The position numbers were made by a program, and so were the translations under genes. The notes under the pieces were generated by a model. It saw nothing but the letters and a program-made list of their open reading frames with translations, searched no databases and had not been told where the DNA came from. This document shows, in pieces, positions 9,680 to 17,873 of a stretch of DNA of 64,000 nt (positions within the stretch are counted from its first letter, which is position 1; every line of letters begins with the position of its first letter). Source of the DNA: an uncultured Pseudobdellovibrionaceae bacterium (lineage in GTDB: Bacteria > Bdellovibrionota > FAC87 > UBA2466). The stretch lies in the NCBI GenBank assembly GCA_964396165.1, contig CAYNEF010000001.1, positions 65,990 through 129,989 on the forward strand, given 5' to 3'.

Positions 9680-10429
9680 ATGCGCAATAACTTTCCCATG
9701 CTAATTCCCTTATCAAAAGAGAGGGAGCCGAATTTGAAAGGGGAAAAACGTCGTATTTTATTGGTGGAAGACCATATAGACATGGCAGAACCTTTAATAA
9801 AGGGGCTGGAAGAAGAGGGGTTCTACGTAAAACACGTAACTCTTGGGAAAGAAGCCATTCGTGTTTTTAACGAGGTTTGGCAACTAATCATTTTAGATCT
9901 CACGCTTCCCGATGTGCCCGGCGAATCTATTTTAAGCCACTTAAAACAAAAACCCGACTATCCTCCCGTTCTTATCCTCACTGCCCGAAGCAAAGTAGAA
10001 GATAAAGTAGAACTCTTTCGTCAAGGCTGTGACGACTACATGACTAAACCTTTCGCATTTGAAGAGCTTTTAGGACGAGTTCAGGCGCTCCTTCGACGTT
10101 CGCACCGGGTTCTGCCTAATAAAACCACCCTTTTAGATCTGGAATTAGATCCCAGCACTCATGTGCTCTCTAAGAAAAACCTCTCTACGCAACTCACTCC
10201 GAAAGAATCTGCCTTAGTGCAATTTCTTATGGGAGCCGAAGGAAGAGTAGTCTCTAGGAAAGAGTTGTTCTTATATGGTTGGGGACTTGATAAGGAACCT
10301 GACACTAATTTCATCGGGGTTTACCTCTTTAACCTAAGAAAAAAACTTTCTGAAGTAAATTGTGCAGACTGGTTGATGACGCTTCGAGGAACTGGATACC
10401 GCTTTTACGATCCGAAAGAAAAACAATGA
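9680..10429 (+). CDS. OmpR-family response regulator (CzcR/CusR-like)
   Basis: Receiver domain (RILLVEDH...D) plus winged-helix trans_reg_C (LTPKE..LL). Likely true start is TTG at 9734, preceded by gagggag 6 nt upstream, giving M-KGEKRRILLVEDH. Confidence 0.85.
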   Translation: MRNNFPMLIPLSKEREPNLKGEKRRILLVEDHIDMAEPLIKGLEEEGFYVKHVTLGKEAIRVFNEVWQLIILDLTLPDVPGESILSHLKQKPDYPPVLILTARSKVEDKVELFRQGCDDYMTKPFAFEELLGRVQALLRRSHRVLPNKTTLLDLELDPSTHVLSKKNLSTQLTPKESALVQFLMGAEGRVVSRKELFLYGWGLDKEPDTNFIGVYLFNLRKKLSEVNCADWLMTLRGTGYRFYDPKEKQ

Positions 10430-11691
10430 CGACGAAAGTTAGATTCACTCTCACCATTTCGATGGTAGTGGCCCTTTTGGTGGGAGCACTCAGTTCGTTC
10501 GTGTATGTGAGAGTCCGCGCCAAGATGCTTACCCAGGCTTCCCAATCCCTTGCGGACTTCCTTAAGCATGAAGCCGATCATATCGTTCATCCTATGGAAC
10601 AAAATGGGTTAGTGATCGACAAAAATCACTTTGGGGATTTTCTTTTGAAAATAGAATCTGAAAACGAAATCCTTTTTGACGGATTCCCCCAAAAAACCGC
10701 CGAAATTAATTCTCCCAATTACATTGTAAAAAAAGTAGTCCAAGATATTAACGGAAAGCCTTTGACCTTGACGGGGGCTTATAATTTGGCCCCTCTTTAT
10801 CATTACCTCGACTCGCTTCTTCAAACTTTGATGTTAGGGTGGGTGCTTACTGTTGCACTCATCATTCCTATTAGTTATTCCCTTGCACTGGCTTTGCTTA
10901 AACCGTTTAGAAACCTTGCTGCAGTGACGTACGAATTGCGCGCCGAAAGTTTGGAGTTTCGGTTCCCAGTACCCCAATATAAAGACGAAGAAGGTCTATT
11001 AGTAGTTTCTTTCAATGCTCTATTGGAACGTCTTCAGAGGTCCTTCGAAAGCATGAGAAATTTCTCACGTAATGTCTCCCATGAGATTCGAACGCCTGTT
11101 TCCGTCATTATGAGCCAATCCGAGATGGCTTTGCGAAAAAACAGGACTTCCGACGAATACCGTAATGCTTTGGAAAAGTCCTTTGATGAATCAAAAAGGT
11201 TAAAAAGCATTATTGACAACCTTCTCTCGCTTGCTGAAGTTGATAGGATTTATGATGAAAACAGAAAGACCACTTTCCCTGTTTTGCTAAGAATTAAAGA
11301 AATTGTGGCAACTCTTACTCAGCAGAGGAATGAATTGAAAGAAATTGCAATTGACTGCGACGAAAATCTTTTGTTTATCGGAAATGAAGTGGCTTTCACC
11401 TCTATCGTCTCAAATCTGATTGAGAACGCCCTTAAATACGGCGGAAAAAAAGTACGTGTATCCTGCATGGAGCAAGGAGAGCGAGTAGTTTTTCTCATCG
11501 AGGACGATGGCCCTGGGATGGTTAGCGCCACTGCCTTACCAAGCAAAACAAAAATGCCTAAGGGAGAAACAAGTCATGGACTTGGGCTTTCAATTGTAAG
11601 AGCTTTTTCTGAAGCTTATGGAGGAGAACTTATCCTTAAGCAATCTTCCCTAGGTGGGCTTTGCGCGACCACCTCTTTACCCTTGAAATAA
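10426..11691 (+). CDS. Sensor histidine kinase (two TM segments, HAMP, HisKA, HATPase)
   Basis: H-box SHEIRTP, N-box NLIENALKYG, G-boxes DDGPGM and GLGLS. ATG overlaps the response-regulator TGA (ATGA); the track ORF starts earlier, at 10360, in the same frame. Confidence 0.85.
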   Translation: MTTKVRFTLTISMVVALLVGALSSFVYVRVRAKMLTQASQSLADFLKHEADHIVHPMEQNGLVIDKNHFGDFLLKIESENEILFDGFPQKTAEINSPNYIVKKVVQDINGKPLTLTGAYNLAPLYHYLDSLLQTLMLGWVLTVALIIPISYSLALALLKPFRNLAAVTYELRAESLEFRFPVPQYKDEEGLLVVSFNALLERLQRSFESMRNFSRNVSHEIRTPVSVIMSQSEMALRKNRTSDEYRNALEKSFDESKRLKSIIDNLLSLAEVDRIYDENRKTTFPVLLRIKEIVATLTQQRNELKEIAIDCDENLLFIGNEVAFTSIVSNLIENALKYGGKKVRVSCMEQGERVVFLIEDDGPGMVSATALPSKTKMPKGETSHGLGLSIVRAFSEAYGGELILKQSSLGGLCATTSLPLK

Positions 11692-12846: not shown

Positions 12847-13048
12847 AGCGATTATCGGCATTATCGGCACAAGGAGTAGCTATGAAACTAATCTTGTAGT
12901 GGTCGGCACCCTTCAGCATCCGCATGAAGGCCGCAAATCTTTTGATTGTTTTTCTGTGCCCAATCTGTCACAAATTTCAATGCTGTTTCACTGGAAAGGC
13001 TTGGGAGATAGCTTGTTGTCTTGATATCCCCGCGACTATTTACTCCAA

Positions 13049-13636
13049 CTATCCATCTAACCTTCGTATTCTTCTCGACATAATAAGCCGCTCCACCAGA
13101 ATCCCCGTAACATAAGCCGCACCATTTTTAGTGATGATGTCATTACTATTGCCTTGTGGTGTACGAGTGACCTTGGAAGTTCCTACACGAAAAACTCCGT
13201 CGTTTCCTCCGCCGCCACCCGGTTTTATGCACCCATATCCTGTTAATGTGAGTTCATCGTCAACGCGAACACGGTTTGTATCTGTATTAATATTTTCGTA
13301 GACCGTTCCTGTCACTGGTTTATCGATCAAGCAAAGCGCCCAATCAGAGGTGCTATTGTTGCTGTATTGAGGGGTACGGGCACAAACGCTATTGTATTGA
13401 TTCGGTCCCACGCTAAAAACGGCTTTGCCGCCGTTTTTCACACAGTGAGAAGCTATCAATAACGTATTAGTTCCAATAACGGTAGCTGAACAACGAGATC
13501 CCGACATAGAAGCATATACAGAGCTAGGCCAATCCTTTGGATCTGCAGGCTCTCCGTTGATTAACCTTCCCTCGAATTCATCCGCTATTGATAGACTTGC
13601 TCCAAAGATTGCAAGCATGCATATTAGATTTTTCAT
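13049..13636 (-). CDS. Secreted degenerate trypsin-like homolog (lacks GDSGG; possible pseudo-protease or fragment)
   Basis: Signal peptide. RLINGEPA and CSATVIGTNTLLIASHC resemble IVGG and TAAHC, but no Ser motif is present. Only 195 aa. Confidence 0.35.
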   Translation of the reverse strand: MKNLICMLAIFGASLSIADEFEGRLINGEPADPKDWPSSVYASMSGSRCSATVIGTNTLLIASHCVKNGGKAVFSVGPNQYNSVCARTPQYSNNSTSDWALCLIDKPVTGTVYENINTDTNRVRVDDELTLTGYGCIKPGGGGGNDGVFRVGTSKVTRTPQGNSNDIITKNGAAYVTGILVERLIMSRRIRRLDG

Positions 13637-13803
13637 AAGCGCACCTTTCTTCGCTATCGCGAATGATTGTTTTTTAATACGTCGAAAGGAGCTTCGACAG
13701 TTTGACTCAGTTACTTAATCCATTTATTTTGCATGCACTGAAACTTATGATCGACTGTTAAGGCTGATTCTTAAATCGAAAAAAATCAAAGGATGATATC
13801 TAT

Positions 13804-14112
13804 CTAATGACTACTTTTCCTTTTTGCCTGAACAACAAAAGTAAAACCCATAGCATCAAGAACTATGTCTATCCCAGTCAGTTCTGAATTTGTACGCTCT
13901 GATAAAATTAGCTCAAGGTGAGGAACTTTTACATTCATGATTTGAGCTACGCGAGCCATGCCGCCAGCACTAACCTCTATCACATCTCGGAGAGCTCGTA
14001 GAAACGTGGGTGTATCGCCAACTTTCAATGCCTCATTCAAATAACTTGCCGCCTCCGAAGGATCTCTAAGAAGGTCCTCTACTAAGTATTGAATGTCGGC
14101 GTTCTCATCCAT
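13804..14112 (-). CDS. HigA-family addiction-module antidote protein (COG3636-type HTH)
   Basis: DPSEAASYLNEALKVGDTPTFLRALRDV...GMARVAQIMNV...LTGIDIVLDAMGFTFVV matches the conserved layout of the 'addiction module antidote' family, judged from memory of family members. Confidence 0.6.
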   Translation of the reverse strand: MDENADIQYLVEDLLRDPSEAASYLNEALKVGDTPTFLRALRDVIEVSAGGMARVAQIMNVKVPHLELILSERTNSELTGIDIVLDAMGFTFVVQAKRKSSH

Positions 14113-14121
14113 ATTTAGTCT

Positions 14122-14787
14122 CTACTTCATAAAACTAAACTGAGGGCACTCTTTATTTACGTTGTTCCAATAAACCTTTCCTTTTTTTGTCATCTCTCTA
14201 TGGTGATCGGAATGTAAAGATTGCAGCTCCTCAAACTTGAGAAGCTCTAGCCACGGGAGTTCAAATTTACCGCCTTTGTGATTCGGTGACTTATAAAGAT
14301 GGTTTTTGACTTTAGTAATTGTAGGGTTCCAATCACCTTCTACCGACCACCATCCGCCAGAAATTGGATAGCAAGCGTCCGTGTATCTACTTTCTTTCGC
14401 TCTTAACCAATCTTCATTCCAGATTTCTACTTCATCCTCAAAATCCTGCGCCTCAGGCACTGCTATTAGGATTGGCCCAGTCAATTTTTCAGTATTGCGA
14501 CCATGCTTGGACATAAAAAATTGAATTTCGCTTTTCTGGGTAGCTTGATCCCAGATCACAAGCTTCTTAAGCCATGTAGAATCCTGTGAAGACAAGTACG
14601 GACCTGCTTTATCGAGAAGCCTTCTATAGTCAATTGCAGAAAACTCTGTGGAATCATAGATAAGCACAAACTTATGCTCTCTAGATTCAGAGGTTCCTTT
14701 CATTATTGCTCGTACCCCTTTTGACGAAAAAGGAACCGCAAGCAAACCAAGTTTTCCAGCCATTATGATTAATTCCCTACGAGTCAT
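14122..14787 (-). CDS. Hypothetical protein with Tat-type signal (TRRELIIMAGKLGLLAVPF), noncanonical partner of the antidote gene
   Basis: Lies 9 bp upstream of the antidote gene, where a ~95-aa RelE/HigB killer would be expected. No RelE-like motifs recognised. Confidence 0.45.
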   Translation of the reverse strand: MTRRELIIMAGKLGLLAVPFSSKGVRAIMKGTSESREHKFVLIYDSTEFSAIDYRRLLDKAGPYLSSQDSTWLKKLVIWDQATQKSEIQFFMSKHGRNTEKLTGPILIAVPEAQDFEDEVEIWNEDWLRAKESRYTDACYPISGGWWSVEGDWNPTITKVKNHLYKSPNHKGGKFELPWLELLKFEELQSLHSDHHREMTKKGKVYWNNVNKECPQFSFMK

Positions 14788-15174
14788 AAACCCTCCTTTA
14801 ATGATTTTTTAATATCGCTCAAAATTAATTTTTCATTAATTTTTGCTTAGCTCGGAACTAAACCTACTCCTCCAGTTAAGCATGCATAGGTTTTTAGCCG
14901 GTTATTCTCAGGTGAAACTGTGATCGTCTGTTAATAAGCCGTCTTGAAAAACGTGCAAAGAAACTTGCTAACGTCTGTTAAGCGATTTCACGAAACAAAA
15001 GCGTTTCGTTTCGGAATAAGCCGATACACTTAAAAGAAATCAAAAGAGTCGGCATGAGTAAATTCAGTCAATGGATGCATTTATTCATTAAAAGAATCTT
15101 AATTTGTGAAAAAGAGATTGCATGATTATGTTAATAACCAGGTGTAGACACTTTAAATATAAATTCTAGCAGCT

Positions 15175-15543
15175 ATGAAAATACAAAAGCAAAAAACGAT
15201 TGTTTCTTTCCGGAAAATCCATTCCCTATTTACTCTACTTGTTCTTTTGTGTCTTTTAACTACAATGTTAAACTTGCAAAAAAACCCTTGTTCCACGAAC
15301 CGGACAAACTTTACAACTCAAAACAGTACTAACTCGTCCCCCTTTTTACCGTTCCGCTACAATAGTGAATCACATGCTCCGTCATGCGATGAATCCTGTA
15401 ATGACTGTTTTCATGCGATTATCCCACAACTGCAAATAGACGCTTCTCAGATTATTACCCTAGTGAAAAACACTTACCTCATGCGTACGCACTCAATTCC
15501 TATTCCACCACCTTTTAGACCTCCCTCTAATTTTTCCGTTTAA
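15175..15543 (+). CDS. Hypothetical small membrane/secreted protein (doubtful)
   Basis: Hydrophobic N-terminus then low-complexity S/T/P-rich sequence. May be non-coding leader DNA of the SulP gene. Confidence 0.2.
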   Translation: MKIQKQKTIVSFRKIHSLFTLLVLLCLLTTMLNLQKNPCSTNRTNFTTQNSTNSSPFLPFRYNSESHAPSCDESCNDCFHAIIPQLQIDASQIITLVKNTYLMRTHSIPIPPPFRPPSNFSV

Positions 15544-15596: not shown

Positions 15597-17873
15597 ATGC
15601 AATCAGATGCTCAACCTTTGTCTCAAAAATGGGTAAATTCAATAAAGAAGTCCCCAAACCAGTCTAAAAATAAGACACCCAACCGAAACTTATGGGACTT
15701 GGGATTATTTTCCCTCCTCTCGGATTGGAAACGCCTTTTCTCTTCAGACTGCTTTCGGCAAGATTTTATTTCAGGTCTAGTAGTAGCCTGTGCTGCTGTG
15801 CCTCTCTCTTTAGCTATTGCCCTAGCTTCGGGAGTTACGCCAGCTACGGGGCTCACTACAGCAATCGTAGCTGGGATAGTGTGCGCGTTATTTGGTGGCA
15901 GCCCTCTTTCAGTAAGTGGTCCAGCGGCTGCAATGTCAATTCTCGTAAATACCGCAGTCATTAAATACGGCTTGTCGGGCCTTTTTTTACTCACCTTAGT
16001 ATGCGGCGCCTTGCAGATTTTTAGTGGCGTATTTCGTCTTGGGAAAATTATCCGCTTTGTTCCTGCTCCAGTTATAATGGGTTTCACCGCAGGAATCGGA
16101 GCAATTATTTTTACGGGGCAACTACCTAAAGCTTTAGGACTTCCAGCCGCTGATCCATCCCATGTTTGTGATGTAATCACACATTCTATGGAGATCTTCC
16201 GACAAACAAATCCTATGGAACTATTTCTGTCTTTGCTTACTATTGGCCTTATGTTTACATTCCCTAAGTTTTCTTCCAAAGTTCCAGCCGCCTTAGTGGC
16301 TGTTGTGGTACCTTCAACTCTAGCAATCTTTCTAAAAATACAAGTAGAAGTCATTGGAACAATTCCCACAAGCTTATTACTCCCTACTGTCCCTACCTTG
16401 CCTAAACATGTAGATGAGGGTTTCTTTTTAATGGCGATAACTATTTACGCTCTTGCCTCGCTGGAAACTCTGCTTTCTTCAAGTGCTGTAGATAAAATGA
16501 GTAGAGGAAAAGCACATAACCCTGACCAGGAACTAATAGGCCAGGGCCTCGGTAATATAGCCTCAGCCATGTTAGGCGGAATCCCCATAACCGCGGTAAT
16601 CGCCAGATCTGCACTAAATGTTCAAGCAGGAGCAAAAACTCGAAGATCGTCAATTATTCATTCGTTATTTATAGTGGCCGCTATTTTGTTATTATCTCCC
16701 GTTGTCAGTCGGATCCCAATATCGGTATTAGCCGGGATTCTTCTTTCTACCGCTTTAAGAATGTTAAATCCTAAGGAATTAGTAGAGCTTTGGAAAACCT
16801 CTAAAACCGATGCCGTCGTTTATGCAGTAACTTTTGTCGTAATAGTTCTCGTGGGCTTGCTTGCAGGTGTCCAGGCCGGTATTGCAGCGGCATTGATTAT
16901 CGCAGCTATACGACTTTCGCAGGTACGAATCAACGTGGACGTTCACGAAGGAATGTCGCCTACACGTCTATCATTATCAGGCCCCTTAACTTTTCTTTCG
17001 TCGGGCCAAATGTCCGACTTGCAAAAACGTCTCGAGAATGAACCTATTGACGGCGTACTGCTCGACTTGTCAGCCGTAAGTTATTTTGACCATTCAGGGA
17101 GTGAGCAATTAACAAATTTTATCAATTATTTATTTAGACGAACCTCTAGGTTAGCCGTCTTACACGCTTCCCATGAGCTAAAAAGGAAAATAGAGTTCCA
17201 ACTAGAAGAAGCTACAAAAGAGATTTTTGTTGATACCGAAACTGAGGCACAAATAAAACTCAACGACAAGTTACCGATTCGTCGCCTCTTACAAGGAATA
17301 ACTAGTTATTCGCGCAAGAAACAAAAATATGAATTGCTCTTCGAAAAACTCGCGGAACGGCAAAGCCCTCACACTCTTTTAATCACATGTTGCGACAGCC
17401 GAATCGATCCCACTCTAATTACTTCGACTCATCCAGGTGAACTTTTTGTTTTAAGAAACATAGGGAATCTTGTACCGAAATATGGTTCCACTAGCCATGT
17501 TGGCGAACAGGCTGCCATTGAGTACTCTCTTTCCGTACTAAACGTAAAAGAGGTTGTAGTGTGCGGACACTCGGGATGTGGAGCAGTTCATGCGAAGCTC
17601 AAGGGCGTGCCTAAGACTTTACCCGGAGTGGATAAATGGTTAACCCAAATAAACGATAACGCTTTCTTGGCCACGGACAATGTGGATACAGCATCAAAAA
17701 CAAATGTAGTGCAACAAATGGAAAACCTGATGAGTTATAACATCGTCAAAGAAAAAGTCGAATCAGGTGTCCTACGCCTACATGGGTGGTTTTACGAAAT
17801 TAAAACTGGTGATGTCTCTACTTGGGATAAGTCTTCTGGTTCTTTTGGAAAGCTTTTTCTAAATCGAAATTAG
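15597..17873 (+). CDS. SulP-family anion (bicarbonate/sulfate) permease fused to STAS and C-terminal beta-carbonic anhydrase domains
   Basis: SulP TM core, STAS region, then beta-CA motifs CCDSRIDP and HSGCGAV. Such SulP-CA fusions are known in established knowledge (e.g. mycobacterial Rv3273). Confidence 0.85.
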   Translation: MQSDAQPLSQKWVNSIKKSPNQSKNKTPNRNLWDLGLFSLLSDWKRLFSSDCFRQDFISGLVVACAAVPLSLAIALASGVTPATGLTTAIVAGIVCALFGGSPLSVSGPAAAMSILVNTAVIKYGLSGLFLLTLVCGALQIFSGVFRLGKIIRFVPAPVIMGFTAGIGAIIFTGQLPKALGLPAADPSHVCDVITHSMEIFRQTNPMELFLSLLTIGLMFTFPKFSSKVPAALVAVVVPSTLAIFLKIQVEVIGTIPTSLLLPTVPTLPKHVDEGFFLMAITIYALASLETLLSSSAVDKMSRGKAHNPDQELIGQGLGNIASAMLGGIPITAVIARSALNVQAGAKTRRSSIIHSLFIVAAILLLSPVVSRIPISVLAGILLSTALRMLNPKELVELWKTSKTDAVVYAVTFVVIVLVGLLAGVQAGIAAALIIAAIRLSQVRINVDVHEGMSPTRLSLSGPLTFLSSGQMSDLQKRLENEPIDGVLLDLSAVSYFDHSGSEQLTNFINYLFRRTSRLAVLHASHELKRKIEFQLEEATKEIFVDTETEAQIKLNDKLPIRRLLQGITSYSRKKQKYELLFEKLAERQSPHTLLITCCDSRIDPTLITSTHPGELFVLRNIGNLVPKYGSTSHVGEQAAIEYSLSVLNVKEVVVCGHSGCGAVHAKLKGVPKTLPGVDKWLTQINDNAFLATDNVDTASKTNVVQQMENLMSYNIVKEKVESGVLRLHGWFYEIKTGDVSTWDKSSGSFGKLFLNRN

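What the first reader, a model, noticed from the sequence alone, without database searches (positions are those of the whole stretch)
13804..14787. HigA-family antidote gene paired with a 221-aa Tat-signal protein instead of a RelE/HigB killer
The 102-aa protein matches the COG3636 addiction-module antidote family. Established knowledge: that family is almost always preceded by a ~95-aa RelE-like killer. Here the upstream gene, 9 bp away on the same strand, encodes a 221-aa protein with a twin-arginine-like N-terminus (TRRELII then a hydrophobic stretch) and no RelE features. This is a candidate novel toxin or effector partner, or a repurposed regulator controlling an exported protein.
Basis: partly seen in the sequence, partly recalled or inferred. 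Interest (0 to 1): 0.6.

Follow-up and report, generated by a model that had tools for sequence, protein, structure and literature searches.

The report
Orphan antitoxin-like gene beside exported protein
A small gene descended from a toxin-antitoxin "antidote" has lost its toxin and now sits behind a conserved exported protein of predatory-type (Bdellovibrionota) bacteria; it is most likely a leftover reused as a small regulator, not a new poison-antidote pair.

Summary
On the minus strand, a 221-aa ORF (14787..14122) with an N-terminal twin-arginine motif lies 9 bp upstream of a 102-aa ORF (14112..13804). The 102-aa protein matches the HI1420/COG3636 antidote family, but only at the Pfam cut-off (27.1 vs 27.0 bits).

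The "novel toxin" reading is not supported. The 221-aa protein belongs to a small, strongly constrained family from Bdellovibrionota (dN/dS about 0.03). It has a conserved RR signal, a thioredoxin-like domain without CxxC, and an uncharacterised His-rich C-terminal module (WWSVEGDWNP...HSDHHRE). That module also occurs in more than 200 secreted thioredoxin-domain proteins. Only 3 of 12 distinct loci carry an HI1420-like neighbour, and these are the three closest relatives. In one of them a trypsin gene separates the two genes.

The nearest HI1420 relatives outside this clade do have an overlapping Gp49/RelE-like toxin, or a relic of one. The window has no such toxin. The 102-aa gene is still under selection (dN/dS about 0.16) and matches a phage repressor family, but it has lost the canonical DNA-reading residues.

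Best reading: a solo antitoxin homologue reused as a small regulator or partner in a lineage-specific operon. Orphan HI1420 genes are common, so interest is low to moderate.

The parts
14122..14787 (-). 221-aa exported protein. It has a twin-arginine-type signal (residues 1 to about 27, ...VRA|I), a thioredoxin-like domain without CxxC (about residues 40-130), and a conserved His-rich C-terminal module (about 139-215: CYPISGGWWSVEGDWNPT...H163...H170...LHSDHHREM...C214).
13804..14112 (-). 102-aa orphan HI1420/COG3636-type (HigA-like) antidote homologue. It is predicted to be all-helical with an Xre-like helix-turn-helix. The recognition helix has diverged.
   Evidence: PF21716 at 27.1 bits and TIGR02684 at 25.1 bits. 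phrog_4268 'transcriptional repressor' at 52 bits. AF2 pLDDT 77; Foldseek E-values are non-significant but Xre HTH proteins recur in the list. The alignment with canonical members shows R/S/Y/R replaced by V/H/E/L. dN/dS is 0.16.
14113..14121 (-). 9-nt spacer between the two genes (AGACTAAAT). It contains no terminator and no strong SD sequence. L001 has a spacer of the same length.
14821..14843 (.). Perfect palindrome AAAATTAAT-N5-ATTAATTTT, 34-56 nt upstream of the ATG of the 221-aa gene. It lies inside a 25-nt block that is identical in L001. Candidate operator or promoter element.
   Evidence: Synonymous sites between the two genomes are near saturation, so this conservation is informative.
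14900..14981 (-). Two copies of TTAACAGACG (14981-14972 and 14934-14925). The proximal copy extends to TTAACAGACGATCACAGTTTCAC and is conserved in L001.
13738..13761 (-). Third copy of the motif (TTAACAGTCGATCATAAGTTTCAG), between the 102-aa gene and the trypsin-like gene. It suggests shared control of the cluster.
12888..13636 (-). Trypsin-like serine protease gene downstream on the same strand. It is frameshifted just before the catalytic GDSGG. It is a neighbour of the 221-aa family gene in 3 of 12 loci.

Best explanation
This is not a toxin-antitoxin module. The 102-aa gene is a solo descendant of a Gp49(RelE/HigB-like)-HI1420 addiction module. It has lost its toxin and has been kept, under selection, in one Bdellovibrionota lineage as the distal gene of a small operon. 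The first gene of that operon encodes a conserved exported protein.

Proposed working, with each step marked as shown or inferred. (1) Shown: the two genes are co-directional and 9 nt apart. There is a strong SD sequence only before the 221-aa gene, no terminator between the genes, and the same layout in a genome whose synonymous sites are near saturation relative to the window. (2) Inferred: both genes are transcribed from a promoter in the conserved 14,830-14,940 region. (3) Inferred from sequence: the 221-aa pre-protein is exported by the Tat pathway (possibly Sec), and the signal is cleaved near VRA27. The mature protein works in the periplasm or outside the cell. It combines a redox-inactive thioredoxin-fold domain with a His-rich module (H163, H170, H192, D194, H196) that probably binds a metal or another ligand. 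(4) Inferred: the 102-aa protein stays in the cytoplasm and acts as a small regulator. Most probably it binds the conserved palindrome AAAATTAAT-N5-ATTAATTTT, as HigA-type antitoxins auto-repress their own operons, and it may also act on the neighbouring trypsin-like gene, which shares an upstream motif. Because its recognition helix has lost the canonical R/S/Y/R residues, it may instead work through protein-protein contacts.
For: 1. Canonical ancestry. The nearest relatives outside the clade (P0177, P0181; 39-45% identity) have a 110-111-aa Gp49-like gene upstream, overlapping by 4 bp. L018 keeps only a toxin relic, which shows that toxin loss happens in this family.
2. No toxin here. tblastn with those toxins finds nothing in the 64 kb (best E 2.9). 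There is no candidate small ORF and no Rfam hit.
3. The pairing is lineage-specific. An HMM scan of all loci finds an HI1420-like gene beside the 221-aa family only in the window (also in L015/L016, where the shared proteins are 100% identical to the window's), L001 (87% identity) and L002 (59%, gene order 215aa-trypsin-HI1420). It is absent within 5-6 kb in 9 other distinct loci.
4. The 221-aa protein looks like an ordinary exported protein. The RR motif is present in 27/32 members. 114/131 remote relatives have a hydrophobic N-terminal segment (crude hydropathy test), and thioredoxin-family Pfam domains were detected in up to 15 of the 131 per model. One is named thiol-disulfide isomerase by JGI. 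GC content is uniform. There are no hits in viral contigs.
5. Both genes are functional: dN/dS 0.03 and 0.16.
6. Regulator-like character of the 102-aa protein: phrog_4268 transcriptional repressor, E 1e-13, and Xre-type HTH proteins recurring among the Foldseek matches, none of them significant.
7. Upstream blocks are conserved despite dS above 1, and the palindrome is a perfect inverted repeat.
8. Literature: solo antitoxins are abundant and have been proposed to act as regulators (PMC2701414). HI1420-domain orphans are the most frequent class among the re-annotated hypothetical orphan antitoxins (PMC12654330).
Against: 1. The residues that canonical family members use in the recognition helix (R-x-S-x-Y-R/K) are replaced by V-P-H-L-E-L in the window, V-E-H-V-E-L in L001 and K-E-E-I-L-Q in L002. 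The window and L001 proteins are acidic (pI about 4.6-4.7; L002's is 6.3). DNA binding may therefore be lost.
2. The HTH_3 model is not detected in the window protein, although it is in canonical relatives.
3. Foldseek E-values are non-significant.
4. The palindrome is one of 13 such repeats in the window, against about 3 expected. It is not found upstream in L002.
5. No promoter or terminator on the minus strand was picked up by the consensus scan.
6. Co-transcription, export and binding are all untested.
7. A partner toxin could lie outside the 64-kb window.
Confidence: 0.55

Rival explanations
1. Trans-acting or 'anti-addiction' antitoxin. The 102-aa protein still neutralises a Gp49/RelE-type toxin encoded elsewhere in the genome or on an invading element. 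Its position behind the 221-aa gene is incidental.
For: The gene is under purifying selection. The N-terminal half, which in this family is thought to contact the toxin (from my own knowledge of HigA2-type antitoxins, not tested here), is the best-conserved part: DPS.AASYLNEAL...FL.ALRDV. Loss of DNA-reading residues would not matter for this role. Trans neutralisation is discussed in PMC2701414.
Against: No Gp49-like toxin is present in the 64-kb window or in the flanks of L001 and L002. The gene keeps the same operon-like linkage to the 221-aa/trypsin cluster in three genomes that have diverged to 37-67% identity. PF21716 scores drop from 49-61 bits in paired members to 27-37 bits in this clade, which suggests changed constraints.
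Confidence: 0.15
2. One reading: the 221-aa protein is a new toxin or effector whose activity is held in check by the 102-aa antidote homologue. This could happen, for example, by binding the folded pre-protein in the cytoplasm before Tat export.
For: The 9-nt spacing is conserved in L001. Tat substrates fold in the cytoplasm, so a cytoplasmic binder is conceivable. The antidote homologue has lost its canonical DNA-reading residues. Remote relatives of the C-terminal module occur fused to an Endonuclease_NS domain, and two show weak, sub-threshold similarity to a Peptidase_C39-like domain.
Against: 9 of 12 distinct family loci have no HI1420-like gene within 5-6 kb. In L002 a trypsin gene separates the two genes. 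The family is vertically inherited in housekeeping contexts with dN/dS 0.03. The superfamily consists of secreted thioredoxin-domain proteins. There is no PADLOC or PHROG match.
Confidence: 0.05
3. The 102-aa ORF is a non-functional remnant of a degraded TA locus that has not yet been deleted.
For: Borderline HMM scores. The toxin is lost. The neighbouring trypsin gene is itself frameshifted, so the locus does tolerate decay.
Against: The ORF is intact in three lineages, although synonymous sites are near saturation. dN/dS is 0.16 against L001 and 0.31 against L002. 30 columns are invariant across the three proteins.
Confidence: 0.05

Closest known systems
HI1419/HI1420-type type II TA modules (Gp49/RelE-like toxin PF05973 or COG3657 with HTH antidote PF21716, TIGR02684 or COG3636)
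   Same: The 102-aa protein aligns over its full length to the antidote family. Its size and helical architecture are the same, and it is the downstream gene of a tight pair.
   Different: The upstream gene is not a toxin of about 100 aa overlapping by 4 bp, as it is in L017 and L019. It is a 221-aa exported protein. The recognition-helix residues are replaced and HMM scores are at or below the cut-offs.
Solo (orphan) antitoxin homologues reused as transcription factors
   Same: An antitoxin-family gene without a cognate toxin, retained under selection next to unrelated genes. Such genes are common (PMC2701414, PMC12654330).
   Different: DNA binding is not shown here and is in doubt because of the acidic, non-basic recognition helix.
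Secreted thioredoxin-fold proteins (periplasmic thiol-disulfide oxidoreductases) and redox-inactive thioredoxin-like domains (KaiB/SasA-N, PDI b domains)
   Different: The window protein has no CxxC; EFSA aligns with the CLSC and CRKC of relatives. It carries a C-terminal WWSV...HSD(D/H)H module that has no Pfam, NCBIfam or PDB counterpart. It has an RR-type signal rather than a Sec-type signal.

Membership tests
PF21716 / TIGR02684 / COG3636 (HI1420-type antidote) | Score at or above the curated family cut-off | tested here: inconclusive
   Pfam gives 27.1 bits against a cut-off of 27.0, which just passes. TIGR02684 gives 25.1 against 53.7, which fails. Homology is clear from the profile search.
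PF21716 / TIGR02684 / COG3636 (HI1420-type antidote) | Located immediately downstream of a Gp49/HI1419 (RelE/HigB-like) toxin gene | tested here: not met
   The upstream gene is the 221-aa exported protein. There is no Gp49-like sequence in 64 kb and no small ORF. Canonical relatives do have the toxin.
PF21716 / TIGR02684 / COG3636 (HI1420-type antidote) | Xre-type helix-turn-helix with the conserved recognition helix (R-x-S-x-Y-R/K-x-LS) | tested here: not met
   The helical layout is kept and Xre proteins recur among the Foldseek matches, none of them significant. However, R/S/Y/R are replaced by V/H/E/L, and there is no HTH_3 hit.
PF21716 / TIGR02684 / COG3636 (HI1420-type antidote) | Neutralises its cognate toxin | not testable with these tools
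   Requires co-expression assays.
Type II toxin-antitoxin module | The two genes co-occur as a unit across homologues | tested here: not met
   3 of 12 distinct loci of the 221-aa family have an HI1420-like neighbour. In L002 the two genes are not adjacent.
Type II toxin-antitoxin module | Small cytoplasmic toxin of a recognised or plausible toxin fold | tested here: not met
   The protein is 221 aa with a conserved export signal and a thioredoxin-like fold. It has no match to any toxin family.
Type II toxin-antitoxin module | Toxicity relieved by the partner | not testable with these tools
   Experimental.
Tat (twin-arginine) substrates | S/T-R-R-x-F-L-K-like motif followed by a moderately hydrophobic h-region and an AxA-type site | tested here: met
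   The window protein reads MTRRELII-MAGKLGLLAVPF-SSKGVRA. RRx-hydrophobic-hydrophobic is present in 27/32 members, several of them as NRRxFLK. The match is by motif only; no TAT_signal HMM hit was returned.
Tat (twin-arginine) substrates | Export depends on TatABC and on the RR pair | not testable with these tools
   Needs RR-to-KK mutants and a tat mutant.
Thioredoxin superfamily | Thioredoxin fold | tested here: inconclusive
Thioredoxin superfamily | CxxC redox motif at the N-terminus of helix 1 | tested here: not met
   The window protein has no CxxC. The CLSC and CRKC of relatives align to EFSA, residues 48-51.

The most novel reading that the evidence does not exclude
In this Bdellovibrionota lineage, the antidote homologue has lost both its toxin and its canonical DNA-reading residues. 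It may have been recruited as a cytoplasmic protein-binding partner, such as a holdase, an export-proofreading factor or an inhibitor, for the Tat-exported 221-aa protein or the adjacent secreted trypsin-like protease. That would be a partner switch from toxin to exported protein. Separately, the WWSV...H...H...HSD(D/H)H module would be a new extracytoplasmic metal-binding domain that works with thioredoxin folds.
Probability: 0.1. Interest if true: 0.6.

Novelty: new member of a known kind. Interest (0 to 1): 0.27.

Why it matters
If the best reading is right, this is one more case of a toxin-antitoxin antidote being reused after toxin loss. It is useful mainly as a caution: an antidote-family hit next to an unusual gene does not mark a new toxin.

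The by-product of more general interest is the 221-aa protein. It defines an uncharacterised family restricted to Bdellovibrionota. Its His-rich C-terminal module is shared by more than 200 cluster representatives of secreted thioredoxin-domain proteins and has no Pfam, NCBIfam or PDB counterpart. Working out its ligand or metal could reveal a new periplasmic redox or metal-handling function.

Tried and rejected
1. Sequence searches of the 221-aa protein found nothing informative in Pfam, NCBIfam, PADLOC, PHROGs or PDB, either with the single sequence or with the family profile.
3. A hidden or degraded RelE/Gp49 toxin was sought in three ways: tblastn with the toxins of the nearest canonical relatives, short-ORF listing and Rfam. 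All were negative.
4. Recent horizontal transfer or a mobile element was considered. GC content is uniform and there are no viral-contig relatives. Only one distant family member (L011) sits in a phage-like stretch.
5. The trypsin-like protease was considered as the truly conserved partner. It is a neighbour in only 3 of 12 loci and is absent from L001, so this was rejected as a family-wide link.
6. The consensus promoter and terminator scan gave nothing on the coding strand.
7. A literature search for the module's motifs returned nothing.
8. The metagenome scan added only one full-length locus that was already known, plus remote fragments.

Full report
**Observation**

The two ORFs exist as described, both on the minus strand. 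The 221-aa ORF runs 14787..14122 and the 102-aa ORF runs 14112..13804, separated by 9 nt. The 221-aa ORF is preceded by a strong ribosome-binding site, AAAGGAGGG.

The 102-aa protein matches PF21716 (dnstrm_HI1420, 'probable addiction module antidote') over nearly its whole length, but only at the gathering threshold (27.1 vs 27.0 bits). It falls far below the TIGR02684 cut-off (25.1 vs 53.7).

The 221-aa protein begins MTRRELIIMAGKLGLLAVPFSSKGVRA. It has no hit in Pfam, NCBIfam, PADLOC, PHROGs or PDB sequences.

**The 221-aa protein**

A word-index search found 31 homologues, all unnamed. Genome hits come from MAGs labelled Pseudobdellovibrionaceae, Bdellovibrionota, 'Proteobacteria bacterium' and Oligoflexales.

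The alignment shows three features.
- **N-terminus:** a conserved M-(N/D/T/K)-R-R-x-(L/F)-(L/I/F)-K motif in 27 of 32 members. Of the other five, four look truncated or mis-started and one (P0028) has a Sec-like signal.
- **Middle region:** variable.
- **C-terminal module:** very strongly conserved, reading CYPISGGWWSVEGDWNPT..KV..HL..SPNH..G.F...WL.LL.FEELQSLHSDHHREM...GKV.W..VN.ECP.

An exhaustive profile search of 1.84 billion cluster representatives found 218 proteins at E below 1e-3 and 21 below 1e-30. The distant ones share only the C-terminal module. Among 131 of these distant proteins:
- thioredoxin-family Pfam domains are by far the most frequent partner domains (Thioredoxin_2 in 15, Thioredoxin in 10, and others);
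- 114 have a hydrophobic N-terminal segment, by a crude hydropathy test;
- 38 have a CxxC motif upstream of the module, many of them CPxC;
- one cluster is named 'thiol-disulfide isomerase/thioredoxin' by JGI.

Positions nearly invariant across the superfamily are Y140, P141, W147, H163, H170, L188, L191, H192, D194 and H196. This pattern suggests a metal or ligand site; that is inference. In pairwise alignments, the CLSC and CRKC of relatives align with E48-F49-S50-A51 of the window protein. The window protein's thioredoxin-like domain is therefore redox-inactive. No Pfam or NCBIfam model covers the C-terminal module, and the literature search for its motifs was empty.

**Is the pairing conserved?**

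I collected 12 distinct loci encoding full-length family members, counting the window, and scanned them with an HMM of the HI1420 clade.

An HI1420-like gene lies nearby only in three cases:
- the window (also seen in L015 and L016, where the shared proteins are 100% identical to the window's);
- L001 (221-aa protein 87% identical; same 9-nt spacer);
- L002 (59% identical; gene order 215aa - trypsin - HI1420-like).

It is absent within 5-6 kb in the nine other loci. The neighbours there are heterogeneous and ordinary: RecQ, IleRS, MetRS, Hsp33, poly(A) polymerase and assorted histidine kinases. GC content around the pair is uniform at about 0.40, and the family is absent from viral contigs.

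dN/dS between the window and L001 is 0.03 for the 221-aa gene, with synonymous sites near saturation.

Taken together, the protein is exported, strongly constrained, vertically inherited and usually lacks the 'antidote'. It is not behaving as a TA toxin.

**The 102-aa protein**

A profile of the three clade members retrieved 13 relatives, all PF21716. The nearest ones outside the clade are canonical.
- In L017 and L019, a 110-111-aa Gp49/PF05973-like gene overlaps the antidote start by 4 bp.
- In L018, only the first 22 and last 13 residues of such a toxin survive upstream of the antidote. This shows directly that toxin decay leaves orphans in this family.

Using these toxins as tblastn queries finds nothing in the 64-kb window (best E 2.9) or in the flanks of L001 and L002. 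No small ORF or Rfam element is hidden around the pair.

The orphan is not decaying. It is intact in three lineages, with dN/dS 0.16 and 0.31. It matches phrog_4268 ('transcriptional repressor') at E 1e-13. Its AF2 model (pLDDT 77) is a six-helix protein. No Foldseek match is significant, but Xre-type HTH proteins (HipB, DdrO, ClgR, C.Esp1396I, HicB) recur among the hits, aligned over about 60 residues at 2.5-3.2 Å.

The clade has diverged, however. PF21716 scores are 27-37 bits, against 49-61 bits in paired relatives. The recognition-helix residues R-x-S-x-Y-R/K of canonical members are replaced by V-P-H-L-E-L, V-E-H-V-E-L and K-E-E-I-L-Q in the three clade members. The window and L001 proteins are acidic, with pI about 4.6-4.7; L002's pI is 6.3. 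DNA binding is therefore plausible by ancestry but unproven.

**Cis elements**

Although synonymous sites are near saturation, the region upstream of the 221-aa gene keeps conserved blocks between the window and L001.
- **Distal block:** TTAACA..CGATCAC..TTTCAC....AATAACC.
- **Proximal block:** a 25-nt identical stretch, AAAAATTAATGAAAAATTAATTTTG. It contains a perfect palindrome, AAAATTAAT-N5-ATTAATTTT (14821-14843), 34-56 nt upstream of the ATG.

The palindrome is one of 13 perfect inverted repeats of at least 9 nt in the window, against about 3 expected.

The decamer TTAACAG[AT]CG occurs three times in 64 kb, against 0.24 expected, and all three copies lie around this gene pair. Two are upstream of the 221-aa gene and one lies between the 102-aa gene and the trypsin-like gene. 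This suggests common control of the small cluster. Which factor binds these sites is unknown.

**Mechanism proposed**

The layout points to a two-gene operon: 9-nt spacing, no terminator, and one strong SD sequence. Co-transcription is inferred, not shown. The operon would encode (i) an exported, redox-inactive thioredoxin-fold protein with a His-rich module and (ii) a cytoplasmic solo antitoxin homologue. The latter most likely regulates the operon, and perhaps the trypsin gene, as HigA-type antitoxins regulate their own promoters. A protein-binding role is the alternative, given the altered recognition helix.

I put about 0.9 on 'not a toxin-antitoxin pair' and about 0.55 on the full explanation, including the regulatory role.

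**Comparison with known systems, and novelty**

Makarova et al. 2009 (PMC2701414) list COG3657 (RelE) with COG3636 (HTH) as a TA pair. They also report that over 50% of genes in the largest families are solo and suggest these act as regulators. A 2025 survey (PMC12654330) found dnstrm_HI1420 proteins to be the largest class among re-annotated hypothetical orphan antitoxins, 150 of 527. An orphan HI1420 gene is therefore ordinary.

The window gene fails the defining contextual feature of the family (no upstream toxin) and the recognition-helix signature. It should be called an HI1420-derived orphan rather than an antidote.

The 221-aa protein is an uncharacterised family. It has modest independent interest as a conserved Bdellovibrionota exported protein carrying an undescribed module.

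**Verdict**

- The toxin interpretation is not supported.
- The 'repurposed regulator next to an exported protein' interpretation is the best supported.
- Interest is low to moderate.

Noticed in passing
window 13636..12888 (-): The trypsin-like serine protease gene is frameshifted at about 13115-13125, just before the catalytic GDSGG. The 195-aa ORF ends at 13049, while the rest (...CYGDSGGAAYYVEKNT...CRPLQD*) continues in another frame to 12888. An independent Logan contig (L015) has the same 195-aa ORF. The L002 orthologue is an intact 251 aa.
   Followed up: partly
window 14981-14972, 14934-14925, 13761-13752 (minus-strand copies): The motif TTAACAG[AT]CG occurs 3 times in 64 kb (0.24 expected), and all copies flank the 221/102 gene pair. 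Two copies extend to TTAACAGwCGATCA(N1-2)AGTTTCA, and one is conserved in L001. It may be a shared regulator or promoter element for the 221-aa operon and the trypsin gene.
   Followed up: partly
L018 2887-2995: A relic of a Gp49/RelE-like toxin (only residues 1-22 and 96-108) lies directly upstream of an HI1420 homologue (P0180). This is a snapshot of toxin decay producing an orphan antidote.
   Followed up: partly
loci L001, L002, L003, L005, L006, L013 and window 10360-11691: A sensor histidine kinase lies within about 6 kb of the 221-aa family gene in 7 of 12 distinct loci. The kinases are of different types (HAMP, PAS, PilS-like, ETR1_N copper-binding type), so this may be chance or a loose functional link.
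   Followed up: partly
P0078, P0133, P0138 (remote relatives of the C-terminal module): The WWSV...HSD(D/H)H module also occurs at the C-terminus of larger secreted proteins. One carries an Endonuclease_NS domain plus a weak (sub-threshold) thioredoxin match. Two show weak Peptidase_C39-like similarity.
   Followed up: no
L011 1-12627: One distant family member (P0021) sits among many short unannotated ORFs together with an N6/N4 DNA methyltransferase and DUF6948. This looks like a prophage or other mobile region, unlike the other loci.
   Followed up: no
window 15597-17873 (+): A 758-aa fusion of a SulP-family anion transporter (Sulfate_transp + STAS) with a beta-carbonic anhydrase lies divergently upstream of the pair. 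Just before it is a 122-aa Cys-rich membrane ORF (15175-15543).
   Followed up: no
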